Shown piece by piece: positions 4,381 through 27,341 of a DNA stretch of 64,000 bases; within the stretch, counting starts at the first letter, position 1, and every line of letters begins with the position of its first letter. This stretch comes from Patescibacteria group bacterium. Lineage in GTDB: Bacteria > Patescibacteriota > UBA1384 > XYA2-FULL-43-10 > 1-14-0-10-43-13. The notes under the pieces are model-generated. The model saw only the letters and a program-made list of their open reading frames with translations. It did not search any database and had not been told where the DNA came from. Made by a program: the position numbers and the translations under genes. The stretch covers positions 799,234 to 863,233 of the forward strand of contig JBAZBD010000001.1 in the NCBI GenBank assembly GCA_041671645.1, given 5' to 3'.

Positions 4381-4389
4381 AACTAAATT

Positions 4390-4418
4390 ATCTTACATTA
4401 AATCAAGAATTTTTTCAA
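4390..4418 (-). promoter_or_regulatory. Putative sigma70-type promoter for tRNA-Pro (TTGAAA-N17-TAAGAT).
   Basis: Minus-strand sequence ttgaaaaaattcttgatttaatgtaagat, ending about 8 nt upstream of the tRNA 5' end. Confidence 0.3.
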
Positions 4419-4446
4419 TCTTTTCGCGATATTTCTTTGGTATGAA

Positions 4447-6402: not shown

Positions 6403-6664
6403 CGTTTCTCTTCCTGGCCAAAATTTGTTTGAGTTGATCCTCGATGAGCAATAAATCATGCATTGACTCGAACACTGAGAAAGCAAGAGCGAAAACGGCG
6501 ATGGCCGATATCAGCAAACCAGCTATGACCAATATTTTCTTGAGCAGCGAGGCGTCAGGGAAATTAACCAACAGCGATATGACGAATATCAATATCAAGG
6601 CGGCGATAATAATGCCTATAATCAAGACGAGGTAAGAGCCAAATTTTATTAGAAATCTTTTCAT
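6395..6664 (-). CDS. Small two-TM membrane protein, 89 aa.
   Basis: Two hydrophobic helices. It overlaps the ABC transporter start by 8 nt and sits between the FN3 protein and the transporter. Confidence 0.4.
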   Translation of the reverse strand: MKRFLIKFGSYLVLIIGIIIAALILIFVISLLVNFPDASLLKKILVIAGLLISAIAVFALAFSVFESMHDLLLIEDQLKQILARKRNDD

Positions 6665-7389: not shown

Positions 7390-10300
7390 TTATTTATCGC
7401 GATCGATCTCTATCTTCCTTGAAACAGTTTGGAGCTTCTCCTGGGCATCCATATGCGTAGCGTCAGAAGGTTTGTATCCAGCTTTGGCAACCAGGAGTTT
7501 GTATTTGCCCTTTGGCAGGACGGTTGAGAATTTGCCCTTTTCGTTTGTGACTGCTGTTCGAATTAATCTTTTGCCTTCGCCGTCCATGATTCTGACTAAT
7601 GCCAATGAAACTCCCGAGTGATTGACGCTATCTAGGACATTGCCCCAAGGTGAGACTTTGACGAAAGACTTGATGTTGACGTACCAAAGCAGTGGGAAGA
7701 GCAGAGCTGAGACCAGGGTGACCGTGTCACGGTGACTGTGAGCCAAGCTATTCAGGATAGAGACGGTGCCAAAAATCAGGAAGCCGAGGGAAACGTAGAC
7801 CAATACTTTTTCGACAACCCCGATTTTCTCGATAAATGAAAATCTCTTGGCGATGCTCTTGTCGTTCATCGAAAGCAAAATATTTGGTACGATCAGTCCT
7901 TCTTGCTCGCTCTTAACCTCGATGATCTGACCCTTTTTGTAGAAACCTGGGGCTTCAGAAACTTCATATAGATCTTTGGTCACCTCAATCTCATATTTGC
8001 CTGGATCAGCGACAAAGCTGAAGTTGCCTTCGATATCAGAATATGTATTGGCTACCGGCCTCTTTGAGAACGAGCCAGGGAAAGTTTGAGTTAATTTGAA
8101 GAGCGTCAGTTTGGCTTGAGCGATTGGGATATAAGTGCCAACCTCAAGTACTCGGCCCCACTTGCGACGGCTTTTCTTGGTGCCGAGAGAGGCAAGGGCG
8201 AAGATCAAAGAGCGAATGTATTCAGGAAGTGAGAATAGAGTGGCGGCATTGGCCAGTGGAGCGGCGGCGGCAGAGATAATCGCTATGCCAGCGACAGCAG
8301 CGGTGCTGGCTGGAGTAGTTGTCGATGTTGGTATGCCAAAGACTACGGGTTGGCCTGAATTGTTGACGCCCACGATTTGCATCTGACCAATAATATCGCG
8401 AACTTTCATGGCTGTGCCAGAGAGATTGGAGATAACAGTATCTAGGACCGATTGCTCCTTGAAAATATCCTTGGTGGCGAAAGTAAAGTCTGTCGATTCG
8501 GCAGTTTGGCCATATTTATCTTTGGAAATGACAGCGAAATGGTAAGTTTTGTTGAAGTCCAAATCGGACAAAACAACTGTATGGAAAGAGTTGAGCCCAG
8601 TATCAACCTCGGTCGTGTAAGGGTATGGAGCAGAAGCGCCATATTTGACTTGAGTGGTGGCTGGAACGGTAGTTTTCCAAGTGATGGTGGCTTGAGCCTT
8701 CTCTGACATCAACTCGCTAGGAGTTGCCTTCACGTCTGATATCTCCAAAGTGCCCTCGCCTGGCTCATCTGGCGGCAGGATAACACAGCCAGAACAATCT
8801 ACAACCGTAGTTGTCTGGAACTCAGCTGCCATACTAGCTGTCTGGTTCTTGGCTAGATCAAAAGAGAATACGGAGTAGTTGAATTGGGTATTTGGCGTGA
8901 CTGTGTCGACATAAGAAGCGTAGCCAGAAGCGTCGACCTGGACGCCAGAGGTTGATTCAGAAATTATATTGTTGCCGTTTTTGACGATAGTGTAGCCGAG
9001 CAACCCAGAGCCAGTGTCAGTACTGGCCTTCCAGCGAAGCATCACTCGGTAGTCAGAGTTGACCCGATCAGAGATGTCGAAAGCTTCTACCTTTTCTAAT
9101 GATGATGGGAGGACCGTATCTAAGATGAAGGTAAGTTCCTCTGACCAAGCGAACTGATTGCCTAGATTATCGTTTGCGGCCACTCTGACGTAGTAAGTGC
9201 CGTCGGCCAGAGCACTGGCACCATCCAAGGTCAGAGAATTTGAAGGAGAAGTCAGCGTAGAGAGAGACAGAGCGTCATTTGCGTTGGCGCAGCCAGAAGT
9301 CTTGCAGATCTTGATACTGTAATTTAAAATTCCTGAATTTGTATCTGTTGCGGCTGGCCAAGTCAAAGTGACGGCTGGCTGATTGTAATATTCAATGTTG
9401 TCGATAGTGTTGGTCTTACCAGATACCGTTGGCTTGCCAGGAGCTGTTGGCTTGTCGCTGTCTGGCTTGCCAGAAGCTTGATTGGAGGCGGCTGAATAGT
9501 TGTCGACGCTATCGATAGCTTCAACTTTGTAATAGTATGTGACACCGCTTGTGACGTTGCTATCAATGTAAGTGGCAGTCGAAGATAGAGTCGTATAAGC
9601 GATCTTGTTCGTACCGATATTTGGTGTGAAATCGGCCTCGGTGGAACGGAAGATAGCGACATTGGCGAAGTCTGTGTCGGTCGGATTGACCCAAGAGAGC
9701 GAAACAGAAGCGCTAGCAGAGAGAGCGGTCAGATTCGTCGGTGCGGATGGCGCTGTGATATCTAGGATAATTGATGCCGAAGCAGTCGGCGACTCATCAC
9801 CATCGATATCTTTGACTTTCAGGTAAACCGTCTTCATCCCGTCAACAGTAGGAGCGGCCAAAGTCCATGACTTGCTGGTTGAGAATGTTTCATACTCGCT
9901 GCCAGAGAAATCAGGAGAATTTGAGACCTTCATTTGTGTGCCAGTGCTAGAAGAAAGCGTAAGTGTTTGATCTATTTGATTTGTCCTAGCCGAAGAGAAT
10001 GAGATCGTGCCAGTCGGCGGGAACCATTTGTTGGTATTGCCGAGATTGATCGAATTTGAAGGATCGATGACCGCACTGCTTAGATTCTTGGAGTTTTCGA
10101 CAGAAAGATAGGAAGTAGAGGTCGAGCCCTTTGGATCAATCTTCCATTGATCTGTACCTGTGCCGCCAGATCTACTGAGCGTGATATTTCCAGCAGAAGT
10201 TCCGTTCAAGCTTAATGCACCGTTGACCGTCTGAGTCGTATCAGAAGCGAAACTAATTGTTCGAGCCGCAGACGCTGTGGCAGATAGATTATTGAAAGTG

Positions 10301-13300
10301 TTAGATCCAGCGACCGTCTGACCTCCGATGCCATTCAAGGTAATCGTTGATGTGCCAGGATCTACCGTCATGCCAGTGAAATCAATATTCCCGCCGATTG
10401 ATACTGATGACGACTCAAGGTTCAATACGTTGGTGTCGTCAGTCGAACCAGTGTATCTAAAGATTCCATTTGTGAATTCATGAGTACCAGAGCCAAGATT
10501 TGCTGTTCCAACGCCATATACGGGATAGGCAAGATAAAGATTTCTTGCAGTTAGATTGTTGTCAACAGCATTTAACGTTGTCCTCTTGCCAGTAGTTATA
10601 GAATAGGCGTAGATGTCACGAGTCGTCGTCACATCAGATGACAGAGTGATCGCGACATCGTTTGTCACACCGGAATAAGCGACTGACCCTTGGCCGAAGT
10701 TTTGGCCAGCGACCGTGACGTCAGATGATGGTCGATAAACAAGGAAAGTCGAAGCAGTAAAATTTGCGCCTGTGTTGACGACGGCATCGCCGTCTGACTT
10801 GTACATCCTGAACGCATATCTGTTGTCACCGTTCAATGTACCACCCGCGTAAGTGTAGAGAACATTTGAGGTAGTGACCGATGAAATCGCGTTGGTAGTA
10901 TTGCCGTTGTGCGCCAACTTCAGATTATAGAAATCATAGGGAGCCGCAGCATAACCTTTTGATTGCAACGTTCCAGTCCCGGTCAAGTCAACAGTTGAAG
11001 TGCCAGGGGTGACAGTGATATTGCTCGTATCCCAATTCCCGCCAACATTGATCGTTCCTGATCCAAGATCAAGCTTATTGCCGATATTTGAAGCATTGCC
11101 ATGCGAAAGACTGCCGGCAATATTTGTTGTGCCGGATCCTAACTTCAAATAGCCAGGGATTGTAGCGTACTCGTTGGTAGAGGTCGAGCCAATAGTCAAA
11201 TTTTTGCACGTTAGATTGTGCGTACTCATATCGACGTAGCCGGCTGGAGTGGTCGTTCTATCTTTTGCGACTATGACATTGCTGTTGCCAAAGTTGAAAT
11301 TGCCAGTTGCCGTAAGAATCCCTGTCGGATCTTGTTGGAATGAAAAGGTTGTAGCAAAATTACTTGGCAATGTTATCGCCTTCTGTGTCATATCAGCAAT
11401 TTGTGGATATATTGCAAGGACTCCCAGTCTTGAATCAGCAGTCAAGTTGTTCACTGTCACGCTGTCGTTGCTCCTAGAGTACACGATGACAGCTTTGCCA
11501 ATACCCATTAGCGTCCCAGGGCCTACTGTGAACGCGCCAGCAGAGCCAGAACCCAAGCCCACAGAGACACCGGCGGTCATAGTAGAAGTAATCCCGGAGC
11601 CCGCCGCAACCAGGCTACCAAAAGTATTATGCATATCAGGGTTGGCAATATTCCCGCTAGACGACTGGGTCCATACGCCGGTAGAGGCGAGAACGCCGAC
11701 TTTGTTTGCAATAATTATGTCACCAGCAATATTAACCGACTTTCCACCGTCAACTAATGTTCCGGCGTTTGCAGTCAATGATTGGGCCGACACATTATCT
11801 TGGAAAGTCCACCCTGCAGTAAGCGTATGATTCGCAAGCAAAGAGATATTATTATTTAGCAAAGTCACATTCGGGTCGATAACCGCATCAACACCGTTGA
11901 AGATAAGATTTCCAAGTACTTGACCATTTGTCGTAATCGTCTTGCCGGTCGTTGTCGGATTGAAGTTGATAGTGCTAGTACCTTCGTTGAACACTGCGGT
12001 TGGATCGGCGGTCATGGTTAAGGAGCCAGCGATATTTAAGGTTTGAGCATTTGCGGTGAATGTGCCGGCGTTAAGAGTAAAGTCGCCATCATCGTTCAAA
12101 GTAGTATTTGCCGAAATTGTCCCGCTGTAGCCGGTGTTGACTGATAGTGATTTGATGTGACTCGTAAAGCTAGCATCAAGCGTCGAATCTTTGGTTGATG
12201 TAGCGTCGAAAATAACATCGCAAGTTGCGCTTGGGATAATATTTGCCGTCCAGTTATCAGCACTTGACCAATTGTCATCCGCTGCTTGGCCGTCCCAGAC
12301 GCAAGTGTTGTTGGCGGCGAACGACACAGAGATTGAATGAGTTGCAGTTACATTTGTAAATGTATATGACGATGGTAAAGTGCCACTGATTGCGCTGCCA
12401 TCGACGACAACATTTGAGATATAATAGCCGTCGCTAGGCGTGATCGTGTACTCCGGGCTAGTCCCATAATTGGCTAAATTATCTCCGAGAGGAGAGATAG
12501 CCCCGTTACTGCCAGCACTTGAGCTAATAGTGTATGTCTTCAAGGTGAATGTGGCGGTGATGGTCTTGTCAGCAGTAATATTTGTTAGTGCCGCACTACC
12601 TGTGCCAGCGGCATCGCCGCTCCAACCAGTAAAGTCAGAAGATACAGCAGGCGTAGCAGCAACTGTCAAATTAGCGCCGTAAGTCACTACTTGTGTCGAT
12701 TGATCGAGATCACCGGTACCATTGCCAGCCTTGCTGATGGTGACTGTGTAACTTCTGATTGTAAATGTGGCCGTAATTGTCTTGTTAGCTGTGATGTTGG
12801 TGAAAGATGCGTCCCCTGTGCCAGTTGCGTCGCCAGACCAACCAGCGAAGGTAGAAGAAGCCGCTGGTGTGGCCACAACCGTTAGATTGGCGCCATAATT
12901 TACTGTTTGGGTTGCCTGATCCAGATCACCCATGCCAGTACCAGTTGTGTTGATAGTAATAGTATAAGTCTTGATTGTAAATGTGGCCGTAATTGTCTTG
13001 TTAGCTGTGATGTTAGTGAAAGATGCGTCCCCTGTGCCAGTTGCGTCGCCAGACCAACCAGTAAAGGTTGAAGAGATGTCAGCTGTCGCGACAACAGTCA
13101 AATTTGCGCCATAATTGACATCTTGGGTTACTTGGTCCAGATCACCCGTGCCAGTACCGGCTTCGTTGATGGTGATAGTGTAGGTTTTGATTGTGAAGAC
13201 CGCAGTAATGGATCTGTCTGCTGAAACATCAGTCAGATAGCAGATGTTGGTAGCGACTGTATCGCAACCAGTCCAGGAAACAAAGTCCGAGGAGGCTGCA

Positions 13301-22300: not shown

Positions 22301-25300
22301 GTACCGTTAGCAGAGTTTGCAGATAATTGGTAGAACTGGTTGCTGCCGCATTTAACATAGTATGTGTTGGCAGAGTTGATATTGTTGATCCATACCGCGC
22401 CGTCGTTATTCACAAACGTACCACCGCCAGACATGTCGAAGAGGAAGTCAGTGGCAACATCATTGGCGTCAAGTGTTAGGACCTGGGCAGGCGCGTTAAA
22501 TGTACCGCCATAGAGATAAAAATTGTAACTTTTAATTGTAACGGTGGCTGTGTTGCTGTTGAAGGTGCCCGAGATAATAGTAGTAGAATAACCGTTCAAG
22601 ACCAAGGTTGAAGAATTGGAATTAAAAGTGCCGCCGTTTAAGTATAGTCCGCCTACTGTCACAGTGCCTGTACCAGCATTGAAAACAGCACCAGACTCAA
22701 CATAGAAGCTGCCCATGTCGCTAGAAGTAAATGTGGCAGTGGCATTGATTGTACCGTAAATATATGCGCCAGAAGAACCAACACTTGCACCTGGGGTATA
22801 AACTTTTGAAGCCGGGATATGAAGAGAATAACTAGTCGAGAGTACATTGGAACCATCGACACTGAACAAGATTTTTCCATTCGCGTCAGAACAATTATCA
22901 GCAGTCGCAAGAATAGTATTGGTCATCGGGCCAGAGTCTTCATAGGTGAGAGAAACCAGGTAAGAGTAAAGCGACAAGCCCGTGATGTCGCTAGAGCCGG
23001 CCGCAACAGTCACAATATTACCAGCTGAATAATTGCCATCTTCGAAGAAAATTGTAATAACTGTTCCGGCGGTAACACCGCCGGCGACGAAATCAAAAGC
23101 GCCATTCCCATCGGTTGCCATTGTCTGTTTTGCACCACCATTAACCGAGGCAGAAACATTTTGCCCAGAGCCAACATTCCCCTGCCCAATTCCCTGATAT
23201 GCAGTACCCGAGATATGACTGCCGAGCCAGTTGGTATTATTACTACCAGATGCAGTTGAGTTGGTCGGTGCGATTGGTCGAGAATTTAGATTGTTTGAAT
23301 CAGAATAAGTAACACGATCGACTGTCCAAGGCGACATCCCACTGGTGTTCGCATTTATCTTCCATTGGCCCGAGCCTGCAGTGCCGTTGAGCTTCATGAC
23401 AATGTTATTCCCAGCCGCGCCCTGTATTGTGAGCGCTCCAGAAATAGTCTGGGTTGAGTCTGCTGCAAAAGATAATGTCTTGCCAGCAGTGGCACAAGTA
23501 AAGCTAGAAGGAGCGTTGTCGCCAGAGATCACCGATTCTTGAGCAGTATCAAATGTCACGACATAAGGCGAGAAAGTGCCGCCAGCCGTCGTAGTCAGAT
23601 TGCGTCCGATTGTAATATCGCTACCTGAGAAATAAGCGCCTGAGCTGATAGCCGCATCGCGCCCAACAACAACTGCATAAGACGGCGATAAATAGCCGTT
23701 CGTCACAGAAAAGTCATTCGATACCGTAAAGCCAGCACTATAACCTACTGTCCCATCACCAGTGTTTGCGTAAATATAATTATAGATAGGCGGAACGTTT
23801 GTAAACGTATATGGATTGTAACTGCTATTAGCAGGAATTGAGCCAATTTTGAAAGTACCATTGGCGTTATTGAAAGTACCGCCAGAGATATTCCAAGTAT
23901 AATCACTATAATATCCGTTTGAGTCAGTTGTAATAGTCAATGTGCCCGAAGTAGATGTAAATGTACCACCGCTCATCGCAAATGATGCGTTTAGCATAGT
24001 AATCGTAGCAGTGTCACCATTAAATGTAGCACCGGTGCTAACCGTAATTTGATAATTTGATAAGGTCAAATTTGAAGTGTTAGCATTGAAAGTACCGCCA
24101 GAGAAAGTAGGAGTAGCCAAGATGTGAGTACCGCTACCAGCATTGAACTCGCCGCCAGCCTGATAAAATGAGCTGGAAAGAGTGAGGTTATTGGCTTCCA
24201 TCTCAACAATGCCATCGTTATACATACCATAGGCGTTTACATTGCCGCCAGGAGTAAACATCGTATACTGAGTGACATAAAGATCATACATAGTACTGAG
24301 AGTCGAACCAGAGACCGAGAAATCAGAGAAACAGCCGCAGTCATCAGCAATCGCTAAATCTGCGTTTGTAATAGCCCCTGCGGTATAGTCACTGTAAAGA
24401 GTGGTCTTGTATCGATACATATTGAGACCAGTTTTGTCTATGGCGGATTCAGGCAAATAGACGATACTGCCGGAATTGTAGCTCGGATCATTATCAATAA
24501 AGATGGTGACTGGTTTGCCAGCAACAAGCTCGACCCCGCTAAAGGAAAAAGTACCACCGGAGCCAGTGACGCCCGACATCTTTCCGCCACCGTTTGAGGT
24601 AATGGAAATCGGGATATCAGCGCCCAAAACGCTGCCGCCGATACCATCGTAAATTGTGCCGGAAATCGTATTGCCGCCAGAATATGTAACTGTTAATTTT
24701 GGATCGAGTGCCGTACCATCATTTTCTGCAAAGTAGCCATAGAAGTAGACACTATCATAATCGGCATTTATGGTTGGCTGACTATCTGCAGCATCAGCAG
24801 TGATTCTAAGACCAAGCTTCGTAACACCAGATGTACTAATAGCTGCTAGACCGCTTGCATTCATCGCGAAATCGTTGTATCCCATATCGTTGTAACTGGC
24901 GTACGGAATCGCAGATGCAAATGCAGTTGTTCCGAAAGTGTCGTAATCCGATGCTTGAAGCGAAGTGTTGCTAGAAGGGTTCGAGGAATACAGACCCAAA
25001 CTCGAATTCCAACCCGAAGGGTCACCCATCTTGTATGCGCCATATACGGAAAAATTGGCAGCTGAGATAGTCGCGGTGTTTGGGATGCTAGAAGTATCAA
25101 AGAGAAACGCACTTCTTGAGACGTAAGCCCAAGCAGCGTTGTTGCCAGCGGCGATTGCGGCCATATCACCGCTTGTTCCGTCATCAGCAGCGCTATATCC
25201 GCCAGACCTTATGGAAGCCCAGTCCCAATTGCTCCTACTGCTGTAAGTGTACCCATCAACAGACGTGACTTCAGTATGAGTATTTGGATAATAAATAACA

Positions 25301-27273
25301 TCAGTATCAATCTTCATGTCAGACTTTGGCGCTGTCTCTTGCCAGACAAAGCTTGAATCCAAGCTGCCTTCGATCTTTTTGGCTTCGACTGCGACAACCT
25401 TGTCTTGGCCAGTCTCATCTTTGACGACTTCACCAGTTGAGGCATTTACATCAAAAGCTTCTGGCTTGTCTCTGAATTTGAGATCGTCTTTGACGACGAC
25501 AGTCTTGTTTTCTTTGGTCTCTGGGTCGGTGACGACAACACTTCCTTCTTTCCCGCCATCAGTCTTGGTCACATTCCACTGGAAATTCTTCGGCGCGTCT
25601 TCGCCCTTGATTGTCTTCCAGAGACGTACACCATACTCAGAGATGTCAAATTCAAATTTGAGGTTACCGTCATCGGTTGTGACCTGGCTATCCTCAGCCA
25701 AAATCTGTGGTGCAATCCATTTGGAAAGCGCGTTTCTGGTATCTTCGGCCATCTTCTGGTCAGGAGTGTTGATATCGGCCCAAGCCACTTTGCTGTCAGT
25801 TCCCTTTGATTTTGATAAAACTGGATTGCCATCGACGTCTTTCAGGGTCACCGTATATTTGTCGCCAGTTTGTCGAGACTCGATTTCATAGCCAATCTTG
25901 TCTTTGAAAACTTTGACAGTAGAGGGCATCTGGTCAAAAAGCACATATTCGGGCGTATCGATGGAATGATTTGGGTTGATATCCTTCCAGCTTGAGTCAG
26001 CCTTGGCATAATCTTCTTTGTAGTGGACAAGGCCGGTATAGGACTCTAGAGTCTTGGTGCCGTTCTTGTTGTCGATTGTCTTGGTAGTCTCTGTGCGATC
26101 AGCGACAATCTCATTTGGATTGGCCAAAATCTGGTCAGTGCCGTTGTTTGAAATAGTAGTATTCTTCTGGCCCTCTTCTTTGGCGATGACAAATGAATAT
26201 TCCTGGCTCCATGGCGACCAAGCGCCAACAGAGTCCTGATAGCGAACGCGAGAGTAGTAGGTTCCTTCGGTGAGTAGAGTTGTTAGCTTGATATTTGTCA
26301 GTTCGTCTTTGGGCTCTGTCTTTGTCTGATCGAAGATCGGAGAAGCATAATCGCCAGATTTGGTCGAAATCTGCCACTCTGAAGCGTTTTGCGTGTCATT
26401 GTCGATATCAAGATAAGAGCTAGCGCTTAGGGTCTGAGTATTTCTAAACAAGCTTTTGTCAGCAGTGAACGAGAGACCGGTTGGTGTATTTGGAAGTCTA
26501 GAGTAGAGCAAGGTCAAAGAGTGCAAAACAGGCGAAAGACTAGCGTCGCCAGTCGAAAGGGTCAAGCGTATGTAGAGAGTCTCGGAATCGGCCATCTCAA
26601 GGACATCGCTCGAAAACAAAATGTTGTCAGTAGAAAATTCCTTTTTGACAGCACCGCCGTTGAGTACTTCGCTGGCCTCGATCGAAAGCCAATCGACAAA
26701 CTCACCCTTGGCCGGGGTGTAGGCCAAAATCGCGTTGCCAGATTCCTGGTACTGATTTTGTGTAATATCTGAGTCTAACTTCGCACTTTGGGAAAGAGAG
26801 AGAGAATTGGGGTTATCGGCTGTCGAAAGTCCAGAAATAGTCCAACTCTGCCAAGCTTCCTGTGTGCCCCAAGCCACTTGTGAAGAGGCGAAAGTGCGAA
26901 TGACGCTGGTAGCAAAAACGGAGGTGAAGATAAGGGCCACGATGCCAGACATGTAGCCGGAGAGTGAAACCCAGTGAATTGCAGAAGCAAACGGGCTCAT
27001 GTGCCACTTGTAGTACCATCTGAATTTCATCCGAAGATTGTTGTGGAGGGTGGCGAAGACTGGAAAAGTAACCTTGGTCGAACGCTGGATCAAAATGATT
27101 TCACGTTCAAGCTGAGCTTCCTTCTTTTGGAGCTCTTTTTGCTTCTCCGCGACAATCACCTCTTCTTTGGTGAGACCTTCAATCGCTGCCTTGTCCTGAG
27201 GCAACAAAGTGTACTTCTCCAAAGGTGCTTTTTTGGAAAAATGACTGCGGAAAAATTTGCGTAGGCCCTTCAA
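7390..27273 (-). CDS. Giant cell-surface protein (adhesin-like), 6,627 aa. From N to C it has a cytoplasmic coiled tail and TM signal-anchor, many FN3 domains, a YVTN 7-blade beta-propeller, WxGGG..NW beta-helix repeats, Listeria-Bacteroides repeats, DUF285 repeats and a C-terminal TM with CarbopepD_reg-like modules.
   Basis: Single uninterrupted ORF. TTG start at 27273 with an AGGAGG RBS 4 nt upstream. The TM MSGIVALIFTSVFATSVI sits about 115 aa from the start. Recognisable repeat classes are listed in the findings. Confidence 0.8.
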   Translation of the reverse strand: MKGLRKFFRSHFSKKAPLEKYTLLPQDKAAIEGLTKEEVIVAEKQKELQKKEAQLEREIILIQRSTKVTFPVFATLHNNLRMKFRWYYKWHMSPFASAIHWVSLSGYMSGIVALIFTSVFATSVIRTFASSQVAWGTQEAWQSWTISGLSTADNPNSLSLSQSAKLDSDITQNQYQESGNAILAYTPAKGEFVDWLSIEASEVLNGGAVKKEFSTDNILFSSDVLEMADSETLYIRLTLSTGDASLSPVLHSLTLLYSRLPNTPTGLSFTADKSLFRNTQTLSASSYLDIDNDTQNASEWQISTKSGDYASPIFDQTKTEPKDELTNIKLTTLLTEGTYYSRVRYQDSVGAWSPWSQEYSFVIAKEEGQKNTTISNNGTDQILANPNEIVADRTETTKTIDNKNGTKTLESYTGLVHYKEDYAKADSSWKDINPNHSIDTPEYVLFDQMPSTVKVFKDKIGYEIESRQTGDKYTVTLKDVDGNPVLSKSKGTDSKVAWADINTPDQKMAEDTRNALSKWIAPQILAEDSQVTTDDGNLKFEFDISEYGVRLWKTIKGEDAPKNFQWNVTKTDGGKEGSVVVTDPETKENKTVVVKDDLKFRDKPEAFDVNASTGEVVKDETGQDKVVAVEAKKIEGSLDSSFVWQETAPKSDMKIDTDVIYYPNTHTEVTSVDGYTYSSRSNWDWASIRSGGYSAADDGTSGDMAAIAAGNNAAWAYVSRSAFLFDTSSIPNTATISAANFSVYGAYKMGDPSGWNSSLGLYSSNPSSNTSLQASDYDTFGTTAFASAIPYASYNDMGYNDFAMNASGLAAISTSGVTKLGLRITADAADSQPTINADYDSVYFYGYFAENDGTALDPKLTVTYSGGNTISGTIYDGIGGSVLGADIPISITSNGGGKMSGVTGSGGTFSFSGVELVAGKPVTIFIDNDPSYNSGSIVYLPESAIDKTGLNMYRYKTTLYSDYTAGAITNADLAIADDCGCFSDFSVSGSTLSTMYDLYVTQYTMFTPGGNVNAYGMYNDGIVEMEANNLTLSSSFYQAGGEFNAGSGTHILATPTFSGGTFNANTSNLTLSNYQITVSTGATFNGDTATITMLNASFAMSGGTFTSTSGTLTITTDSNGYYSDYTWNISGGTFNNANGTFKIGSIPANSSYNPYTFTNVPPIYNYIYANTGDGTVGYSAGFTVSNDFSVTNGYLSPSYAVVVGRDAAISSGAYFSGSDITIGRNLTTTAGGTFSPYVVTFDTAQESVISGDNAPSSFTCATAGKTLSFAADSTQTISGALTIQGAAGNNIVMKLNGTAGSGQWKINANTSGMSPWTVDRVTYSDSNNLNSRPIAPTNSTASGSNNTNWLGSHISGTAYQGIGQGNVGSGQNVSASVNGGAKQTMATDGNGAFDFVAGGVTAGTVITIFFEDGNYSAGNIVTVAAGSSDITGLSLYSYLVSLTYEDSGPMTNTILATADNCSDANGKILFSVDGSNVLSTSYSLHIPASKVYTPGASVGSSGAYIYGTINATATFTSSDMGSFYVESGAVFNAGTGTVTVGGLYLNGGTFNSNSSTLVLNGYSTTIISGTFNSNTATVTIKSYNFYLYGGTFNAPAQVLTLDANDVATDFLFDMSGGGTFVNNDGAVWINNINSANTYYVKCGSNQFYQLSANSANGTVVTQDTLLVEHSLNITLANTFNAYGYNVETKHFAQDTGTFSAPNGTMKVSGDFIRDGGTFSNNYGTVELNSASLAQVVGGSTEFYNFTMTTSTARTISFNPGTNQTVTGQWTATGIADNLLTLQRNGTGAQWEITPSTSMDNQWTVDYVSVSNSKNNAANPISPTNWTKGVNVTNWDVLPGCVWDGGGTGNNWSTAENWTLDTVPDAACDVVFDSTSTKASTLDSGFTAHIKSLSINTGYTDTVTLGADLNDDGALNLAEGTLSAGNYTINIGGSWNNTGGTFTKGTSTVNFNGTAAATVASNSNDFYNITVAGQAGTISTPYAWIANSGATTTTKIDTSSNAVTTHTIGAAEFGVAVDNSGFIWQTNRSNGTLTKINASTNSVDASITIGSDPYGVAIDSNGFVWVASGTNNVAYKINPTTNAIAATVNVGARAYGIAADSSGFVWVANFNSNTVSKINATTDTVVATITVGTQPAGVAVDLNGFVWVPNYGTSDVSKINPTTNTVVATVSAGTNAFGVAADANGFVWVSNLGTNTVTKINTATNAVAATVTVGSAPCGVAVDASGFVWVTNSSANSVSKINGSTNVVAATINTGLAPYSLGDFTGYAYKKIVLSQGGTGSITLSDALVASNNLTVSSGTFTSGANAVTVGSFIQTDGTFAAPSTTMSVANDFTHTAGTFTHNSGTVVFNGGDSSIQDISGDTTFSAVTIQPGATTTKTLKFEASKTQTIAGALTVSGASGRVISLNSSSDGSTWSIDPQSTRAISYASVKDSINANATAIYTDNSGSNVTSAGNNVNWFASAPPNAASTVAITSIDSTLFTVTWTDNSSDETGFKVFTAAGNADCSAASYSGTPDYTTAADATSQAITGKTINTQYCAKVIATNADGDSDPAFAAPKYTLANTPDAPTVTAYDWSAASGNNMAAVINVNSNPAGTEFALSCNATPDSWLQGDGTCGASKVWKTKVNWETGTVNYLKNLTSNTLYSVKALARNGDTTETSASSAGTATSAPAQPASLTHTANTASQISWDWADVAGASSYRLLKSSDDSDVGSPSASAYDQGSLSANTQYTNYVRAYNGVLGQASSTASAYSSIEAASGITFGTIATDSIQVSATGTFTNLSVGSSGLYITKSAGTGTGFASWNTNNNTLTNTGLSPNTQYSYTAQARNGDGETTAATDSISKYTLAAAPDAPTLAASSASVINIKLTDNSSTTYAIAVSADGGSTWNYVKHADGTNQASEDWQNYAAWGGASGFDNVSLSPNVQYTYKVKARNGDNTETAFSSTAAKYTLANVPSAPTVDATSSSSLTVKINQNSNPAGTNYAVYNDTLSKYVQADGSSDTSAVWQDYTTWGGASGVTNTGLTANTEYTYKVKAKNGDNVETALSSGTAQTTVDVAPTEPNTVAIGTLTTTGFTVTWTDASSNETGFKVYTAAGNADCSAASYSGTPDYTTAAGAISQAITSKSINTQYCAKVIATNAIGDSAPAYAAPKYTLAAAPDAPTLAASSASVINIKLTDNSSTTYAIAVSADGGSTWNYVKHADGTNQASEDWQNYAAWGGASGFDNVSLSPNVQYTYKVKARNGDNTETAFSSTAAKYTLANVPGTPTFGTVTSTTIPVLIAQNSNPSNTTYAIKVVYGATTKYVQANSTLGDSAVWQAYATWGSSKTVTGLTANTLYTFSVAATNGDSVATAYSATADQSTLAVYTLTYNSGANGSVIGSSPQTVDHGSSGSEVVATPAANYHFVKWSDNDSTNPVRTDTNVTANITTTASFAIDTHTLAYSAGANGSIVGTTPQTIDHGASGSEVTATPAANYHFVSWSDDVMTAARTDSNVAGDIAVTASFAIDTHTLTYSAGANGSIVGTTPQTVDHGSSGSEVTATPAANYHFVSWSDDVMTAARTDLNVADNISVTATFAINTYTLTYNAGSNGSVVGTSPQTVDYGANGSQVTATPAAGYYFVDWSDANTTAARTDTNVTVDITVTANFALQFLSRWDTSKTSSGSSTATQIHLPLESTGTYNFIVDWGDSSTSTITTWNQAETTHTYASGGIYDLKIGGTITGFRFNNAGDKLKLSQISQFGPLRLGNSDGYFSGTKNLKITATDVLNTTGTTTMKNSFRDSGIDTVPSMNSWDMSAVTDMYCMFESSSLFNQDISSWNTGAVTSMYAMFYNAFVFNQNIGSWNTTNVINMAYMFESAWAFNQNISSWNTGSVTTMREMFWNNSAFNQNISNWNTGAVTNMNQMFYSAAAFNQNLASWNVVNVTDMTNMFSSSALSNANYSNILIGWSAQAVKSNVTLGAATKKYTLGAAADGRAHLVSAHTWTITDGGPSAFVLTYSAGSGGSIVGITPQTVDYGANGSEVTATPAANYHFTSWSDGVLTAARTETNVITDKSVTASFAIDTHTLTYSAGANGSVVGSTPQTVNYGANGSQVTATPAANYHFVSWSDDVMTAARTDSNVAGDIAVTASFALDAPASATGVTITPTSSTTFNVTWTDNSSIETGYKVYTADGNADCSAASYSGTPDTTTSADAVSQAIASKSVNTQYCAKVVATNSGGDSAPAYAAPKYTLANVPTFTTVAGDYSDADLWHLDTTINASANPAGTNYYIQYSTNDGAGAGNFYDPNAMAWQTETTYLFKKDKDNVDLAANTQYWMKVKAKNGDNVETIYTSTSVADVTPPAAPTALNITNICTTKATTTWTAATGADSYTVSYGTDTAATNIGTLTTATTSKQITGLSNTTTYYWKASATSTANGTGPYAAPSSFETSNCGVESPDDFAGSAASTTQINWTWSDITSEETGYKVEDSAHTSLSGNLDAGSTSYNETPLSANTGYTRHVNVYNGGGSQDSNSDTVYTLAAVPGQPTVTTLSSSRIRITVDKNGNPNANTRYAIAVSADAGSTWNYVKNADGTTQVSEDWQLYADWGGDSGFANTGLTKNTNYIYKIKARNGDNVATDFGATNNTTTLDNFSVTISSDGSGSGSLDQVTQIVDAGADVTTTATAAASSDFVSWTGCDTVATNICYLTDVSADRSITAVFTIKTYTITINEAGTGTGDLDQVTQDVNYGANLTVVATADISSTFTGWSGDATGTGDASFTNITANKTITATFTIKTYTITINTTGTGMGDLDQATQTVNYGANLTVVATPAASSTFAGWSGDATGTGDASFTNITANKTITATFTIRSYTVTISKAGNGTGDLDQSTQVVTYGANLTVAATPAVSSDFTGWSGDAAGTGSAALTNITADKTITATFTLKTYTISSSAGSNGAISPLGDNLANYGTSPEYTITPSDGYYISNVVVDGSAISGTLPSSYTFTNVTATHSISVSFAANNTCVWDGQAADDNWSSADNWTANIIPSATCDVIFDATSTKDSTLDASFTSHIKSLSVNTGYSGTISANTTLNDDGDFTLNAGTFTANAQTLNIAGSLTMTADPTAVFNEGTSTINFNPTTTGKTITTNGQVLGNLIFNGVDAVIDPNVTLLNNNISLLANHTLTAGWTFQDNVSAQSLTANAGTLVDGGKSVNIAGDIIIANKVGVLASTGVWTQSSSGNIANPDMHNTFGSLVAAGSGITSTMTAGVSVGLGSGSAGAFTVGPGTLMGIGKAVIVYSRSNDSVTVNNLTADSRLGVLAIYPQIADMTQKAITLPSNFATTFSFQQDPTGILTATGNFNFGNSNVIVAKDRTTTPAGYVDMSTHNLTCKNLTIGSTSTNEYATIPGYLKLGSGTTNIAGSLSHGNASNIGNKLDLGSGTINVGGNWDTSNITVTPGTSTVDLTGTGTLQSKGYAAAPYDFYNLKLAHNGNTTNAISSVTTSNVLYTYAGGTLNGDNRYAFRMYKSDGDAVVNTGANFTASTFLVYRPSSDVTVAGQNFGQGSVAYSGVTNDVAITLSSDVTTTRDIYAYSITTGKRTTLNAVDNNLTARNLYLAYPVYGVGTANLGSGTHEFTNGIFRYTGSTDDTNVLNLESSSVSIGGNIDFTGMTVDPGTSTITLNGIGGQTVAGSNTFNNLSATASAARTISFASDTTQTVNGALSLNGTSAGNITLSRSGGTGTDQWKIDPKGSTSTSYLSVENSKNLSSAVIDPSNSINLGNTNKWFPPTGTISFSSARTNQIDQTLTLSSSTGTQMKVSNSPDFSGSEYETFSTSKSWTLAAPTVDGMKTVYLKVKDIDGDESPTASASIILDITAPSAPTNLTALSASASVSLSWVNPTDTDFANVAIFRSTEADFTPNIGTNKIAYTTLSSTATYIDSNVTSGVTYYYKVEAIDSVDNYSAASNQASGKPDSDKPTAPGKPTVSGKTNTIDNIEYYNQPAVTLTWPAATDTNSGILNYSIKICKTSGCANANDALSLSTLTSPSNSLTLDGASALADGTYYVRVAANDNLGNQFAWSEELTFILDTVLPSSLEKVEAFDISDRVNSDYRVMLRWKASTDTGSGLLGYTIVKNGNNIISESTSGVQVDASGYASYVDTVTPNTQFNYSVFSFDLAKNQTASMAAEFQTTTVVDCSGCVILPPDEPGEGTLEISDVKATPSELMSEKAQATITWKTTVPATTQVKYGASAPYPYTTEVDTGLNSFHTVVLSDLDFNKTYHFAVISKDKYGQTAESTDFTFATKDIFKEQSVLDTVISNLSGTAMKVRDIIGQMQIVGVNNSGQPVVFGIPTSTTTPASTAAVAGIAIISAAAAPLANAATLFSLPEYIRSLIFALASLGTKKSRRKWGRVLEVGTYIPIAQAKLTLFKLTQTFPGSFSKRPVANTYSDIEGNFSFVADPGKYEIEVTKDLYEVSEAPGFYKKGQIIEVKSEQEGLIVPNILLSMNDKSIAKRFSFIEKIGVVEKVLVYVSLGFLIFGTVSILNSLAHSHRDTVTLVSALLFPLLWYVNIKSFVKVSPWGNVLDSVNHSGVSLALVRIMDGEGKRLIRTAVTNEKGKFSTVLPKGKYKLLVAKAGYKPSDATHMDAQEKLQTVSRKIEIDRDK
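12757..12850. repeat. About 95-bp perfect intragenic repeat, copy 1. It is the coding sequence of a 72-aa Listeria-Bacteroides-type repeat unit.
   Basis: The sequence gattgtaaatgtggccgtaattgtcttgttagctgtgatgtt.gtgaaagatgcgtcccctgtgccagttgcgtcgccagaccaacca recurs 216 bp later. Confidence 0.7.
12972..13068. repeat. About 95-bp perfect intragenic repeat, copy 2.
   Basis: See copy 1. The period is 216 bp, or 72 aa. Confidence 0.7.
17489..17828. repeat. 340-bp perfect intragenic duplication, copy 1. It encodes an FN3-type segment.
   Basis: The stretch from ggtacattagccaaagtatacttggcagcag to gcaagggtgtatttgg is identical base-for-base to 18413..18752. Confidence 0.85.
18413..18752. repeat. 340-bp perfect intragenic duplication, copy 2.
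   Basis: Identical to 17489..17828. The period is 924 bp (308 aa, roughly three FN3 domains). Confidence 0.85.
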
Positions 27274-27312
27274 CTTCCCTCCTGCGACAACCAGTCTTAT
27301 TATTATGAGTAT

Positions 27313-27341
27313 ATTTTAACAAGAGAAGTGAACTCGTTCAA
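27313..27341 (-). promoter_or_regulatory. Putative promoter of the giant gene (TTGAAC-N17-TAAAAT), with a GTGAAC-tc-GTTCAC inverted repeat overlapping the -35 element.
   Basis: Minus-strand sequence cccttgaacgagttcacttctcttgttaaaat, about 35 nt upstream of the RBS. Confidence 0.25.

What the first reader, a model, noticed from the sequence alone, without database searches (positions are those of the whole stretch)
7390..27273. A 19.9-kb single ORF encoding a cross-phylum mosaic surface protein
The ORF has a TTG start behind a strong AGGAGG RBS. It opens with a 115-aa cytoplasmic coiled tail and a signal-anchor, so it is N-terminally membrane-tethered rather than LPxTG- or S-layer-anchored.

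The roughly 6,100-aa ectodomain strings together several repeat classes:
- many FN3 domains
- a 7-blade YVTN beta-propeller (approximately 20465..21330)
- WxGGGxxNWS..NW beta-helix repeats
- 72-aa Listeria-Bacteroides-type repeats
- six or seven Mycoplasma-type DUF285 repeats (FNQNISxWNTxxVTxMxxMF; approximately 15430..15960)

These repeat families are normally associated with different phyla, so their co-occurrence in one protein is unusual. A protein of this size in a small genome is a large investment, consistent with host-cell or particle attachment.
Basis: partly seen in the sequence, partly recalled or inferred. Interest (0 to 1): 0.75.

Follow-up and report, generated by a model that had tools for sequence, protein, structure and literature searches.

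The report
Giant modular surface protein of Patescibacteria
A real, uninterrupted 6,627-residue gene in a tiny-genome Patescibacteria (CPR) bacterium encodes a modular cell-surface fibre of a kind already reported for this group, but it is framed by a conserved long export signal and a conserved C-terminal membrane anchor for which I found no prior description.

Summary
The ORF is real. It lies at window 7390..27273 on the minus strand, has 6,627 codons with no internal stop, and starts at a TTG behind AGGAGG. It comes from an 867,751-bp Patescibacteria MAG contig and is already deposited (MFA6963897.1, auto-named "BspA family... surface protein"). FN3, Flg_new, a 7-repeat YVTN propeller, 6 PARCEL/DUF285 repeats and beta-helix-like modules are confirmed.

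- The protein is not simply N-terminally tethered. Its last ~330 aa form a conserved membrane module (3 predicted TM passes plus two transthyretin/CnaB-like sandwiches). This module sits within 40 aa of the C-terminus in 53 of the 56 relatives that carry it full-length.
- The N-terminus is a conserved extended signal sequence (invariant ST..H..R..WYYxWH..H) with a canonical signal-peptidase site in 68 sequences.
- "Cross-phylum mosaic" is an artefact of Pfam names. The same toolkit recurs in Berkelbacteria-like relatives; only the DUF285 block is unusual.

A GT2/PMT-like/GT2 trio upstream and a small FN3 protein plus a MacB-type ABC transporter downstream are syntenic in relatives.

Best reading: a Sec-exported, C-terminally anchored, probably glycosylated adhesin or fibril. 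It is a new variant of a known kind, of moderate interest.

The parts
7390..27273 (-). Giant ORF, 6,627 aa plus stop codon (deposited as MFA6963897.1)
27313..27341 (-). Promoter-like site: TTGAAC, 17-nt spacer, (TG)TAAAAT
   Evidence: This is a consensus match only.
27278..27283 (-). AGGAGG ribosome-binding site, 4 nt before the TTG start
26887..27273 (-). Extended signal sequence, aa 1-129: charged helical tail, conserved n-region motif, h-region, and c-region ending T-F-A|S
   Evidence: Cleavage is inferred, not shown.
26974..27087 (-). Conserved n-region motif, aa 63-100 (Q..ST....H...R..WYYxWH....H). T66, H77, W86, Y87, Y88, W90, H91 and H100 are invariant in 68/68 sequences.
26908..26973 (-). 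Hydrophobic h-region, aa 101-122
24676..26886 (-). Conserved 'head', aa 130-866. It is all-beta with no Pfam, NCBIfam or PDB-sequence match and is 37-60% identical in relatives.
23236..24675 (-). Module A1, aa 867-1346: small beta-sandwich, GGTF beta-helix-like units and a cap
   Evidence: No database match.
21778..23235 (-). Module A2, aa 1347-1832: a paralogue of A1 ending in a cap
21343..21762 (-). W-x-GGG-x-NWS..NW start plus beta-helix-like unit, aa 1838-1977
20512..21342 (-). YVTN/NHL-type beta-propeller, 7 repeats of 41 aa, aa 1978-2254
19918..20466 (-). Beta-helix-like unit plus cap, aa 2270-2452
17203..19863 (-). FN3 array I, 9 domains, aa 2471-3357. It contains the 300-nt pair that is 98% identical (17477-17776 and 18401-18700).
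16372..17199 (-). Flg_new_2 array I, 4 copies, aa 3359-3634
15463..15909 (-). PARCEL/DUF285 repeats, 6 x 25 aa, aa 3789-3937
14926..15315 (-). Flg_new array II, 2 copies, aa 3987-4116
13420..14862 (-). FN3 array II, 4-5 domains, aa 4138-4618
12385..13416 (-). Flg_new_2 array III, 5 copies, aa 4620-4963
10030..12306 (-). Second W-start beta-helix-like region ending in a cap, aa 4990-5748
8464..10026 (-). Membrane-proximal FN3/Ig-like array plus an amphipathic juxtamembrane helix, aa 5750-6270. This block is conserved in 30 relatives.
7393..8376 (-). Conserved C-terminal membrane module, aa 6300-6627
8236..8313 (-). Module helix H1 (predicted stop-transfer TM), aa 6321-6346. It is followed by a short helix H2 and a K/R cluster (KKSRRK).
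7867..8157 (-). Transthyretin/CnaB-like sandwich 1 (CarboxypepD_reg), aa 6373-6469
7663..7806 (-). TM3-TM4 helical hairpin, aa 6490-6537
7399..7644 (-). Transthyretin/CnaB-like sandwich 2 (CarboxypepD_reg), aa 6544-6625
6667..7386 (-). Small secreted protein with 2 FN3 domains (239 aa), 3 nt downstream with no terminator between. It is a paralogue of the giant's juxtamembrane segment and is syntenic in L006 (40% identity).
4447..6486 (-). MacB-type fused ABC ATPase/permease (679 aa). It is syntenic in L006 (59% identity) and L074 (56%).
27430..28158 (-). GT2 (GT-A) glycosyltransferase. Its best sub-threshold matches are polyprenyl-phosphate sugar synthases (AglJ, PgfS, PpgS).
   Evidence: Syntenic in L005, L012, L013, L015, L029, L035 and L039.
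28155..29993 (-). PMT_2/PMT-type (GT-C) membrane glycosyltransferase, 612 aa
   Evidence: above the Pfam cut-offs; synteny
29965..31500 (-). Second GT2-like protein, 511 aa (Pfam score just below cut-off)
   Evidence: synteny

Best explanation
This is a genuine giant, modular cell-surface protein of a Berkelbacteria-like Patescibacteria (CPR) bacterium. It belongs to a family defined by its two ends rather than by its middle.

Proposed mechanism
1. A conserved extended signal sequence (aa 1-129) targets the nascent chain to the Sec pathway. It has a long cytoplasmic n-region with an invariant ST..H..R..WYYxWH..H motif, an h-region, and a c-region ending T-F-A|S. It is probably removed by signal peptidase I.
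2. About 6,200 aa of beta-rich modules are threaded out.
3. Translocation stops at helix H1 of a conserved C-terminal module. That module has three predicted TM passes, and its two transthyretin/CnaB-like sandwiches lie on the positively charged side, which is presumably cytoplasmic. This module is the anchor.
4. As a result the conserved N-terminal 'head' (aa 130-866) sits at the distal tip. The variable cassettes (beta-helix modules, YVTN propeller, FN3, Flg_new, PARCEL) form a stalk or binding array, as in stalk-type Gram-positive adhesins.
5. The adjacent GT-A/GT-C/GT-A genes probably O-glycosylate this Thr/Ser-rich (25%) protein outside the membrane.
6. The co-transcribed small FN3 protein and the MacB-type ABC transporter are conserved accessories of unknown role.
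7. The most likely function is attachment to a host cell or to particles.

What is shown and what is inferred
- Shown: ORF integrity, domain content, family-wide conservation of both termini, synteny.
- Inferred: cleavage, topology, glycosylation, adhesion.
For: ORF and source
- The ORF is intact and the start is supported by homologues.
- The source is a Patescibacteria contig of 867,751 bp.

C-terminal module
- Exhaustive phmmer with the last 358 aa found 582 cluster representatives at E<=1e-10 and 44 at E<=1e-30.
- 56 of the top 150 carry the full-length module, and in 53 of those 56 it ends within 40 aa of the C-terminus. Host protein lengths range from 373 to 5,960 aa.
- The AF2 model has pLDDT 84 and the order helix, helix, sandwich, long helix, helix, sandwich.
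- The sandwiches match transthyretin-like and CnaB folds with TMt 0.73-0.76.
- Net charge over 29 sequences is +4.5 after H2, +2.1 before TM3 and +1.7 after TM4, against +0.3 in the TM3-TM4 loop and -0.3 before H1.

N-terminal signal
- In 68 sequences eight positions are invariant, and there is an SPase-I-like -3/-1 pattern with Pro at -6.
- Of the 56 full-length module carriers, 12 have the long motif (median 2,521 aa) and 28 have short signal peptides (median 794 aa).

Conserved head and variable middle
-.

Synteny
- The GT2/PMT/GT2 trio lies directly upstream in L005, L012, L013, L015, L029, L035 and L039 at 51-85% identity. This includes loci whose ORF shares only the signal motif.
- The small FN3 protein and MacB lie downstream in L006, and MacB-like genes lie downstream in L043, L056, L064 and L074.

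Other sorting signals and precedents
- No LPXTG, lipobox, PEP-CTERM or RTX motif. No SLH, ESPR or SecA domain.
- Precedent for GT-A plus GT-C genes clustered with the adhesins they O-glycosylate: the S. mutans Pgf cluster (PMC12041528).
- Precedent for giant membrane proteins with adhesion domains in CPR: Vampirococcus (PMC8080830).
Against: - Nothing here is experimental.
- The h-region is of TM length (about 22-29 aa), so the N-terminus could stay uncleaved as a signal anchor.
- Placing two transthyretin/CnaB-like sandwiches in the cytoplasm is unusual for that fold. It rests only on the positive-inside rule. The AF2 inter-domain geometry is unreliable (pTM 0.48).
- Synteny may partly reflect simple collinearity among related genomes. 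The GT genes could equally serve cell-wall polymers.
- N-motif proteins without the C-module exist (L033, L043, L056, L062, L064, L074), so the two ends are separable.
- The central ~3,100 aa are not corroborated by an independent assembly.
Confidence: 0.6

Rival explanations
1. Two-ended anchoring. The N-terminal hydrophobic segment is an uncleaved signal anchor, so the polypeptide is held in the membrane at both ends. It would form a giant surface loop or coat (an envelope scaffold or S-layer substitute) rather than a projecting fibre with a distal head.
For: - The h-region is of TM length.
- The strongly conserved cytoplasmic n-region would make sense as a permanent cytoplasmic domain.
- AF2 predicts a continuous helix over aa 94-119.
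- Both ends co-occur in at least 12 large proteins.
Against: - The -3/-1 small-residue pattern with Pro at -6 is conserved across 67 sequences, although the flanking residues vary. That is hard to explain without cleavage.
- Proteins with the same C-module use ordinary short signal peptides in the same position.
- The two ends are separable.
Confidence: 0.2
2. The gene is real, but its central part (about aa 1980-5070) is mis-assembled. Repeat units could be collapsed, expanded or mis-ordered, or swapped with the paralogous giant gene that sits at the contig end, so the stated length and domain order would be wrong.
For: - A 300-nt pair that is 98% identical lies 924 nt apart within FN3 array I.
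- A paralogue (P0008) is truncated by the start of the same contig.
- 52 of 76 related ORFs are cut by contig or locus ends, so these genes do break assemblies.
- No independent assembly spans the middle.
Against: - All other internal DNA repeats are only 60-91% identical, diverged enough to assemble uniquely.
- The frame stays open for 19.9 kb.
- Both flanks are collinear with independent assemblies over 2,025 and 1,593 residues.
- Composite blocks of the middle recur in P0037: the W-start/YVTN/cap block at 47% identity over 628 aa, and the four Flg_new copies at 70%.
- There is no composition break.
Confidence: 0.12
3. One reading: a cross-phylum mosaic assembled by horizontal acquisition of repeat families from Listeria/Bacteroides, Mycoplasma and other lineages.
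For: - The DUF285/PARCEL block was found in none of 209 relatives, so that one cassette may be a recent acquisition.
- Module order differs between relatives, which shows shuffling.
Against: - All other classes recur within the same CPR family.
- DUF285 is reported across bacteria, algae and giant viruses, so the family names do not mark phyla.
- GC content is uniform across the gene.
Confidence: 0.05
4. The protein is a shed or secreted factor (enzyme scaffold, toxin carrier or predation factor) rather than a cell-attached adhesin.
For: - Giant Omnitrophota proteins are proposed to act in cell-wall degradation (10.1101/2023.11.21.568195).
- The head's weak structural resemblance to carbohydrate-binding modules and phage baseplate proteins.
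Against: - No catalytic, toxin, peptidase or SecA domain was detected in any of the ten overlapping pieces.
- A conserved polytopic C-terminal module argues for retention.
Confidence: 0.05

Closest known systems
Giant membrane/surface proteins of CPR bacteria (e.g. Ca. Vampirococcus lugosii; PMC8080830)
   Same: - Reduced genome.
- The longest proteins are membrane-localised and carry adhesion-type domains, including fibronectin.
- They are proposed to form a fibrous surface and mediate host attachment.
   Different: - Those proteins are 1,392-4,163 aa and come from Absconditabacteria; this one is 6,627 aa and from a Berkelbacteria-like lineage.
- The passages I retrieved from that paper by term search describe no shared N-terminal signal motif or C-terminal module. 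I did not compare the sequences directly.
Stalk-type Gram-positive adhesins (MSCRAMM / CnaB-stalk proteins such as SdrD and Cnm) together with the S. mutans Pgf glycosylation cluster (PMC12041528, PMC5856776)
   Same: - Order of signal peptide, distal conserved domain, repeat stalk and C-terminal retention element.
- CnaB/transthyretin-like sandwiches.
- GT-A plus GT-C genes clustered with the adhesin genes they O-glycosylate.
   Different: - No LPXTG or sortase signal. Retention would be by a polytopic membrane module.
- The sandwiches are predicted to lie on the cytoplasmic side.
- The GT2 gene is far below the PgfS equivalog cut-off (49 vs 500 bits), and the GT-C gene is PMT_2-type rather than YfhO-type.
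Extended signal peptides of autotransporters and two-partner secretion proteins (ESPR; PMC2805444)
   Same: An unusually long signal sequence with a conserved N-terminal extension ahead of an otherwise ordinary n/h/c signal, associated with very large passengers. Here the long motif also goes with larger proteins.
   Different: - Unrelated sequence, with no ESPR Pfam hit.
- The extension is about 100 aa.
- There is no beta-barrel translocator.
Giant genes of Omnitrophota (10.1101/2023.11.21.568195)
   Same: Ultra-small bacteria investing in enormous, largely extracellular multi-domain proteins. Some of those with complete C-termini have C-terminal TM and intracellular regions.
   Different: - Those reach 30,000-85,804 aa, have numerous TM regions, and most carry SecA DEAD-like domains or C39/S8 peptidases.
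- None of these features is present here.
Giant1-5 extracellular proteins of Apilactobacillus kunkeei (PMC12863079)
   Same: Surface proteins of 3,000-8,000 aa taking up several percent of a small (1.5 Mb) genome (abstract).
   Different: A different phylum. I did not compare sequences or anchoring.
BspA / PARCEL (DUF285, TIGR02167) repeat surface proteins
   Same: Six bona fide 25-aa PARCEL repeats. This is the source of NCBI's automatic name.
   Different: The repeats cover about 150 of 6,627 residues, and no LRR_5/BspA-type leucine-rich repeat was detected. The deposited name describes about 2% of the protein.

Membership tests
PARCEL / DUF285 repeat proteins (PF03382, TIGR02167) | Tandem repeats of about 25-26 aa scoring above the curated cut-offs | tested here: met
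   - PF03382: 168 bits against a cut-off of 25.
- TIGR02167: 69.1 bits against a cut-off of 30.
- 6 repeats at aa 3789-3937.
BspA family leucine-rich repeat surface protein (the name in the NCBI record) | BspA-type leucine-rich repeats (LRR_5-like) | tested here: not met
   No LRR family appears among the Pfam or NCBIfam hits of any of the ten pieces. The name evidently derives from the DUF285 block.
YVTN-family beta-propeller (TIGR02276) | Repeats of about 40 aa above cut-off, in a number sufficient for a closed propeller | tested here: met
   117.3 bits against a cut-off of 27.85. 7 repeats with 41-aa spacing, the first weaker. No structure was predicted for this part.
Flg_new / Flg_new_2 (InlB B-repeat-like) | A domain of about 65-73 aa above the Pfam cut-off | tested here: met
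   160, 130 and 79 bits against a cut-off of 23.6. 11 copies.
Fibronectin type III | Pfam fn3 above the gathering score | tested here: met
   Up to 82 bits against a cut-off of 25. 13 central copies.
Sortase-anchored LPXTG adhesins (MSCRAMM type) | A C-terminal LPXTG-like motif, then a hydrophobic segment, then a short basic tail | tested here: not met
   No LP.[TSA]G or NP.TG anywhere in the protein. The C-terminus is a 330-aa polytopic module instead.
S-layer / SLH-anchored proteins | SLH or another wall-binding domain | tested here: not met
   No such Pfam or NCBIfam hit.
T1SS RTX giant adhesins (LapA / SiiE / MpIBP type) | RTX nonapeptide repeats, a C-terminal T1SS signal and an HlyB-type ABC transporter | tested here: not met
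   - A single chance GGxGxD match.
- No HemolysinCabind hit.
- The neighbouring ABC transporter is MacB-type: PRK10535 at 297 bits, full length.
Autotransporter / TPS extended signal peptide (ESPR) | The ESPR sequence motif and an outer-membrane translocator | tested here: not met
   No ESPR or autotransporter hit. The resemblance is functional only.
Omnitrophota-type giant proteins | More than 30,000 aa, numerous TM regions, and SecA DEAD-like or C39/S8 domains | tested here: not met
   6,627 aa. TM-like segments occur only at the two ends. No SecA or peptidase hit. Criteria taken.
Pgf-like protein O-glycosylation cluster | A polyprenyl-phosphate sugar synthase (GT-A) plus a GT-C transferase encoded next to the substrate adhesin | tested here: inconclusive
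   - GT2: 92 bits against the Pfam cut-off. PMT_2 and PMT are above their cut-offs.
- The arrangement is conserved in 7 further loci.
- The match to PgfS is only 49 bits against a 500-bit cut-off.
- Glycosylation itself cannot be tested here.
CPR family with the C-terminal TM / transthyretin-like module (unnamed; defined here) | A module of about 320 aa (hydrophobic helix pair, K/R cluster, sandwich, TM hairpin, sandwich) at the extreme C-terminus | tested here: met
   - hmmsearch with the A2 profile: 414 bits, profile positions 5-317.
- 40-52% identical to the closest members.
- 53 of 56 full-length members carry it within 40 aa of the C-terminus.
CPR family with the extended N-terminal signal motif (unnamed; defined here) | Q..ST..H..R..WYYxWH..H, then an h-region, then Pro(-6) and small residues at -3/-1 | tested here: met
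   All invariant positions are present in this protein. 76 metagenomic loci plus 12 or more proteins share the motif.

The most novel reading that the evidence does not exclude
The two conserved ends may be the signature of a surface-protein display system of Patescibacteria for which I found no description. Its parts would be a dedicated extended signal sequence (invariant WYYxWH motif) recognised by a specific targeting or processing partner, and a C-terminal polytopic anchor whose two cytoplasmic transthyretin-like domains couple the giant ectodomain to something inside the cell. It would work together with a linked GT-A/GT-C glycosylation trio and a MacB-type mechanotransmission ABC transporter. 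This would be a CPR counterpart of LPXTG/sortase or PEP-CTERM/exosortase sorting, used to mount rapidly shuffling host-binding cassettes.
Probability: 0.3. Interest if true: 0.7.

Novelty: new variant of a known kind. Interest (0 to 1): 0.5.

Why it matters
How ultra-small CPR episymbionts recognise and hold on to hosts is largely unknown beyond type IV pili. This protein itself is an (unusually large) example of the giant surface proteins already noted in CPR genomes.

The analysis shows that such proteins in Berkelbacteria-like lineages share two things:
- A recognisable export signal and membrane anchor.
- Linked glycosyltransferase and ABC-transporter genes.

That gives a simple sequence handle (the WYYxWH signal and the C-terminal module) for cataloguing the surface-exposed, fast-evolving repertoire of these organisms from fragmentary metagenomes. 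It also singles out the conserved distal head as the first candidate for a binding domain.

It corrects the deposited name as well. 'BspA family LRR protein' describes about 2% of the molecule.

Tried and rejected
- Word-index homology searches with the C-terminal 358 aa and with the 29-sequence module alignment returned nothing. The exhaustive phmmer search then found hundreds of relatives, so those two negatives are method artefacts.
- The look-up of encoding contigs could not locate the paralogue P0008.
A 6-sequence alignment worked but found only 3 genome loci.
- The afdb50 fold library was unavailable.
- Foldseek against the PDB matched only the individual sandwiches of the C-module, never the whole module (TMq <= 0.24).
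- PDB sequence searches with the head profile and with the two beta-helix-like regions found nothing meaningful.
- Cluster look-ups for taxonomy returned mostly unnamed metagenome proteins, so I cannot say whether the C-module is restricted to CPR.
- Rejected anchoring mechanisms: LPXTG, lipobox, PEP-CTERM, RTX/T1SS, SLH, autotransporter.
- Rejected the idea that the N-motif or the C-module occurs in other genes of this window. Only the giant ORF has them.


Full report

The window holds one ORF at 7390..27273 on the minus strand. It has 6,627 codons with no internal stop, and there are no N bases in the window. It begins with TTG at 27273. AGGAGG lies at 27283-27278, four nt upstream. A promoter-like TTGAAC-17-(TG)TAAAAT site lies at 27341-27313.

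The TTG is the first possible start after the upstream stop. It aligns residue-for-residue with the ATG starts of relatives (MLSFEKIFKK..., MFSFNNFFKNRFKK...).

The exact protein is already public. It is MFA6963897.1, 'MAG: BspA family leucine-rich repeat surface protein [Patescibacteria group bacterium]', and IMG calls it 'YVTN family beta-propeller protein/surface protein'. It sits on a contig of 867,751 bp, so the gene is 2.3% of that contig. The surrounding genes are ordinary CPR housekeeping genes: enolase, iPGM, RuvABC, DnaK, an aminoacyl-tRNA synthetase, LytR, ComEC and five tRNAs.

**2. Anatomy**

I ran Pfam and NCBIfam on ten overlapping pieces, then self-derived HMMs. The order of parts is:

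| Residues | Part |
|---|---|
| 1-129 | Extended signal sequence |
| 130-866 | Unique 'head' |
| 867-1346, 1347-1832 | Two paralogous modules, each a small sandwich, GGTF beta-helix-like units and an 85-aa 'cap' |
| 1838-1977 | Start of a beta-helix-like segment, marked by W-x-GGG-x-NWS..NW |
| 1978-2254 | Seven 41-aa YVTN repeats |
| 2270-2452 | Beta-helix-like unit plus cap |
| 2471-3357 | Nine FN3 |
| 3359-3634 | Four Flg_new_2 |
| 3789-3937 | Six 25-aa PARCEL/DUF285 repeats |
| 3987-4116 | Two Flg_new |
| 4138-4618 | Four to five FN3 |
| 4620-4963 | Five Flg_new_2 |
| 4990-5748 | Second W-start beta-helix-like region ending in the fourth cap |
| 5750-6270 | Membrane-proximal FN3/Ig array |
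| 6300-6627 | C-terminal membrane module |

- The 'WxGGG...NW repeats' are in fact two occurrences of a module start.
- The protein is 25% Thr+Ser.
- The head, the beta-helix-like units and the cap have no Pfam, NCBIfam or PDB-sequence match.

**3.

Hydrophobic helices at aa 6321-6346, 6490-6512 and 6519-6537 alternate with two CarboxypepD_reg domains.

An exhaustive phmmer search of 1.84 billion representatives with the last 358 aa gave 2,313 hits at E<=1e-3, 582 at E<=1e-10 and 44 at E<=1e-30. The weakest hits probably share only the generic sandwich. Of the best 150 hits:
- 56 contain the whole module.
- In 53 of those 56 it ends within 40 residues of the C-terminus.
- The carrier proteins range from 373 to 5,960 aa.

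Named members are Candidatus Berkelbacteria, Candidatus Uhrbacteria and unclassified Patescibacteria. Most are unnamed metagenome proteins.

AlphaFold2 with a 29-sequence alignment gives a confident model (pLDDT 84). Its elements are:
- helix 22-47
- helix 50-64
- sandwich 74-170
- long helix 172-213
- helix 218-238
- sandwich 245-326

Foldseek matches the sandwiches to transthyretin-like and CnaB domains (TMt 0.73-0.76). No solved structure matches the module as a whole (TMq <= 0.24).

Across 29 sequences, positive charge concentrates after helix 2 (net +4.5), before TM3 (+2.1) and after TM4 (+1.7). The TM3-TM4 loop (+0.3) and the segment before helix 1 (-0.3) are neutral. By the positive-inside rule (established knowledge) the most likely topology is:
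- ectodomain outside;
- one stop-transfer pass (H1);
- both sandwiches cytoplasmic, on either side of a TM hairpin.

This topology is an inference.

**4. The N-terminus is a conserved extended signal sequence, not obviously a permanent anchor**

The first ~860 aa have relatives at 37-51% identity. One is a partial paralogue (P0008, WC227_00005), which is the first gene of the same contig.

A metagenome scan with the N-terminal alignment returned 76 loci. In a 68-sequence alignment:
- T66, H77, W86, Y87, Y88, W90, H91 and H100 are invariant.
- S65 is conserved in 66/68 and R81 in 67/68.
- After about 22 hydrophobic residues there is Pro at -6 (38/66).
- Position -3 is T/V/A/I/S in 63/67.
- Position -1 is A/V/S/G in 67/67, with Ala in 60.

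That is the canonical signal-peptidase-I pattern, which would place cleavage after Ala129 (T-F-A|S-S).

Independent support comes from the 56 proteins carrying the full C-module. Twelve start with this long motif and 28 start with ordinary short signal peptides. The long motif goes with larger proteins: the median is 2,521 aa against 794 aa (Mann-Whitney p = 5e-5, not corrected for relatedness).

The closest functional analogy is the extended signal peptide of autotransporter and TPS proteins (PMC2805444), though there is no sequence relationship. Cleavage is inferred. Because the h-region is of TM length, an uncleaved signal anchor remains a serious rival.

**5. A conserved frame around a shuffled middle**

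After the head the relatives diverge into an NHL propeller, a W-start beta-helix plus LamG, or GLUG repeats.

I searched with this protein's modules against 209 related proteins and ORFs. Hits per module:

| Module | Relatives with a hit |
|---|---|
| W-start | 16 |
| cap | 19-25 |
| FN3 types | 18-29 |
| Flg_new | 7-9 |
| YVTN | 3 |
| Juxtamembrane FN3 array | 30 |
| DUF285 | 0 |

P0037 combines W-start, YVTN, cap, Flg_new, beta-helix and the C-module.

The phylum labels in the Pfam names are historical. DUF285 alone appears in papers on Lactococcus, Mycoplasma, diatoms, pelagophytes and algal giant viruses. The DUF285 cassette is the only element that looks unusual here.

**6. Assembly integrity**

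Evidence in favour:
- Most internal DNA repeats are 60-91% identical.
- L008, from a different 413-kb contig, is collinear with aa 4-1978 in one 2,025-residue alignment at 58% identity.
- L006 (a Berkelbacteria MAG) is collinear with aa 5070-6627 at 57%, and P0018 with aa 5341-6626 at 53%.
- P0037 reproduces the W-start/YVTN/cap block (47% over 628 aa) and the four Flg_new copies (70%).

Remaining concerns:
- One 300-nt pair is 98% identical (17477-17776 and 18401-18700).
- 52 of 76 related ORFs are cut by contig or locus ends.
- A paralogue is cut by this contig's own start.

Both ends are therefore corroborated. Copy number and order in the central ~3,100 aa are plausible but unverified.

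**7. Neighbourhood**

*Upstream, same strand.* There is a GT2 (92 bits), a PMT_2/PMT-type GT-C membrane transferase (above the Pfam cut-offs) and a second GT2-like gene. The GT2's best, sub-threshold NCBIfam matches are polyprenyl-phosphate sugar synthases: AglJ, dolichyl-phosphate hexose transferase, PgfS and PpgS.

This trio lies directly upstream of an N-motif ORF in L005 (56-68% identity) and in L012, L013, L015, L029, L035 and L039 (51-85%). Some of those loci have an ORF that shares only the signal motif and not the head.

*Downstream.* Three nt after the stop, with no terminator, lies a 239-aa secreted protein with two FN3 domains. Its FN3 plus amphipathic helix resembles the giant's juxtamembrane segment. 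Next comes a MacB-type fused ABC transporter (PRK10535, 297 bits over its full length).

- Both genes are syntenic in L006 (40% and 59% identity).
- MacB-like genes directly follow complete N-motif ORFs in L043, L056, L064 and L074.
- In L074 a 41%-identical copy of the small FN3 protein forms the C-terminus of a 3,218-aa ORF.

GT-A plus GT-C genes clustered with the adhesins they O-glycosylate outside the membrane are established for the S. mutans Pgf cluster (PMC12041528; PMC5856776). I therefore infer, but have not shown, that the giant Thr/Ser-rich protein is a substrate. The role of the ABC transporter is unknown.

**8. Mechanism proposed**

See the best explanation (confidence 0.6). In short:
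- Sec export is driven by the extended signal, which is probably cleaved.
- The protein is retained by the C-terminal module.
- The conserved head sits at the distal tip of a long, probably glycosylated stalk of shuffled cassettes.
- The function is attachment.

Rivals are two-ended anchoring as a surface loop (0.2), mis-assembly of the middle (0.12), a true cross-phylum HGT mosaic (0.05) and a shed factor (0.05).

**9. Comparison with what is known, and novelty**

Giant membrane proteins with adhesion domains, proposed to mediate host attachment, are already described for CPR. In Vampirococcus they are 1,392-4,163 aa (PMC8080830). Very large surface proteins in small genomes are also known elsewhere: A. 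kunkeei Giant1-5 (abstract) and Omnitrophota.

This protein fails the defining tests for:
- LPXTG, SLH, RTX/T1SS and autotransporter anchoring;
- the Omnitrophota giant-protein type;
- BspA-type LRR, despite its deposited name.

Three things appear to lack a prior description in Pfam, NCBIfam, the PDB and the literature searches I could run:
- the conserved WYYxWH extended signal;
- the C-terminal TM/transthyretin-like module;
- their linkage to a GT trio and a MacB-type transporter.

I therefore rate the finding a new variant of a known kind, with interest 0.5. The protein as such is not surprising for CPR, but its framing modules are a useful lead that I found described nowhere.

Noticed in passing
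Outside the window: first gene of the same 867,751-bp contig (P0008, WC227_00005): A second, partial family member (841 aa, 47% identical to the head) is cut by the contig start. The genome therefore holds at least two such genes, and the assembly probably breaks inside one of them.
   Followed up: partly
window 6667-7386 (-); L074 14401-15003: The small secreted 2-FN3 protein downstream is a paralogue of the giant's juxtamembrane FN3 plus amphipathic helix. In L074 a 41%-identical copy is fused as the C-terminus of a 3,218-aa N-motif ORF that lacks the C-module.
   Followed up: partly
window 4447-6486 (-); L006, L043, L056, L064, L074: A MacB-type (mechanotransmission) ABC transporter gene directly follows N-motif ORFs in several independent loci. 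Its role is unknown.
   Followed up: partly
window 17477-17776 and 18401-18700: A 300-nt FN3-coding duplication, 98% identical and 924 nt apart. It is either a recent duplication or the one place where short-read collapse or expansion is realistic.
   Followed up: partly
window 23236-23493, 21778-22029, 19918-20157, 10030-10275 (-): An 85-aa 'cap' module (...TISF..TQTV.G.L...G..GN.I.L......W.I.P......Y..V..S.N...) occurs four times and recurs in 19-25 relatives. It has no Pfam, NCBIfam or PDB-sequence match, so it is an unannotated domain family that terminates the beta-helix-like units.
   Followed up: partly
window 26974-27087 (-): The cytoplasmic n-region of the signal has three invariant histidines and an invariant WYYxWH in 68/68 sequences. 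That is far more conservation than export alone needs and suggests a dedicated binding partner.
   Followed up: no
window 53699-54565 and 54562-56001 (-): ComEC appears split into two overlapping ORFs, a Competence domain protein and a metallo-beta-lactamase domain protein.
   Followed up: no
window 51804-53609 (-): A 601-aa hypothetical protein has two weak PsbP-like hits, which is odd for a non-photosynthetic CPR organism.
   Followed up: no
window 56-1720, 1823-3607, 33826-34815: Three sizeable ORFs have no family assignment or only a weak one. The one at 1823-3607 has weak alpha/beta-hydrolase hits, and a 22%-identical homologue follows the giant gene in L005.
   Followed up: no
L002/L014 (Ga0172374_1000695) 10001-20088: In this relative the head (775 aa, with an aberrant C-terminal tail) and a downstream ORF of more than 2,555 aa are separated by 96 nt. 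This is probably a frameshift or assembly error splitting one giant gene.
   Followed up: no
method note: The word-index protein search returned nothing for the Ala-rich C-terminal module, whereas exhaustive HMMER found hundreds of relatives. Negative results from the word index are unreliable for low-complexity membrane segments.
   Followed up: yes
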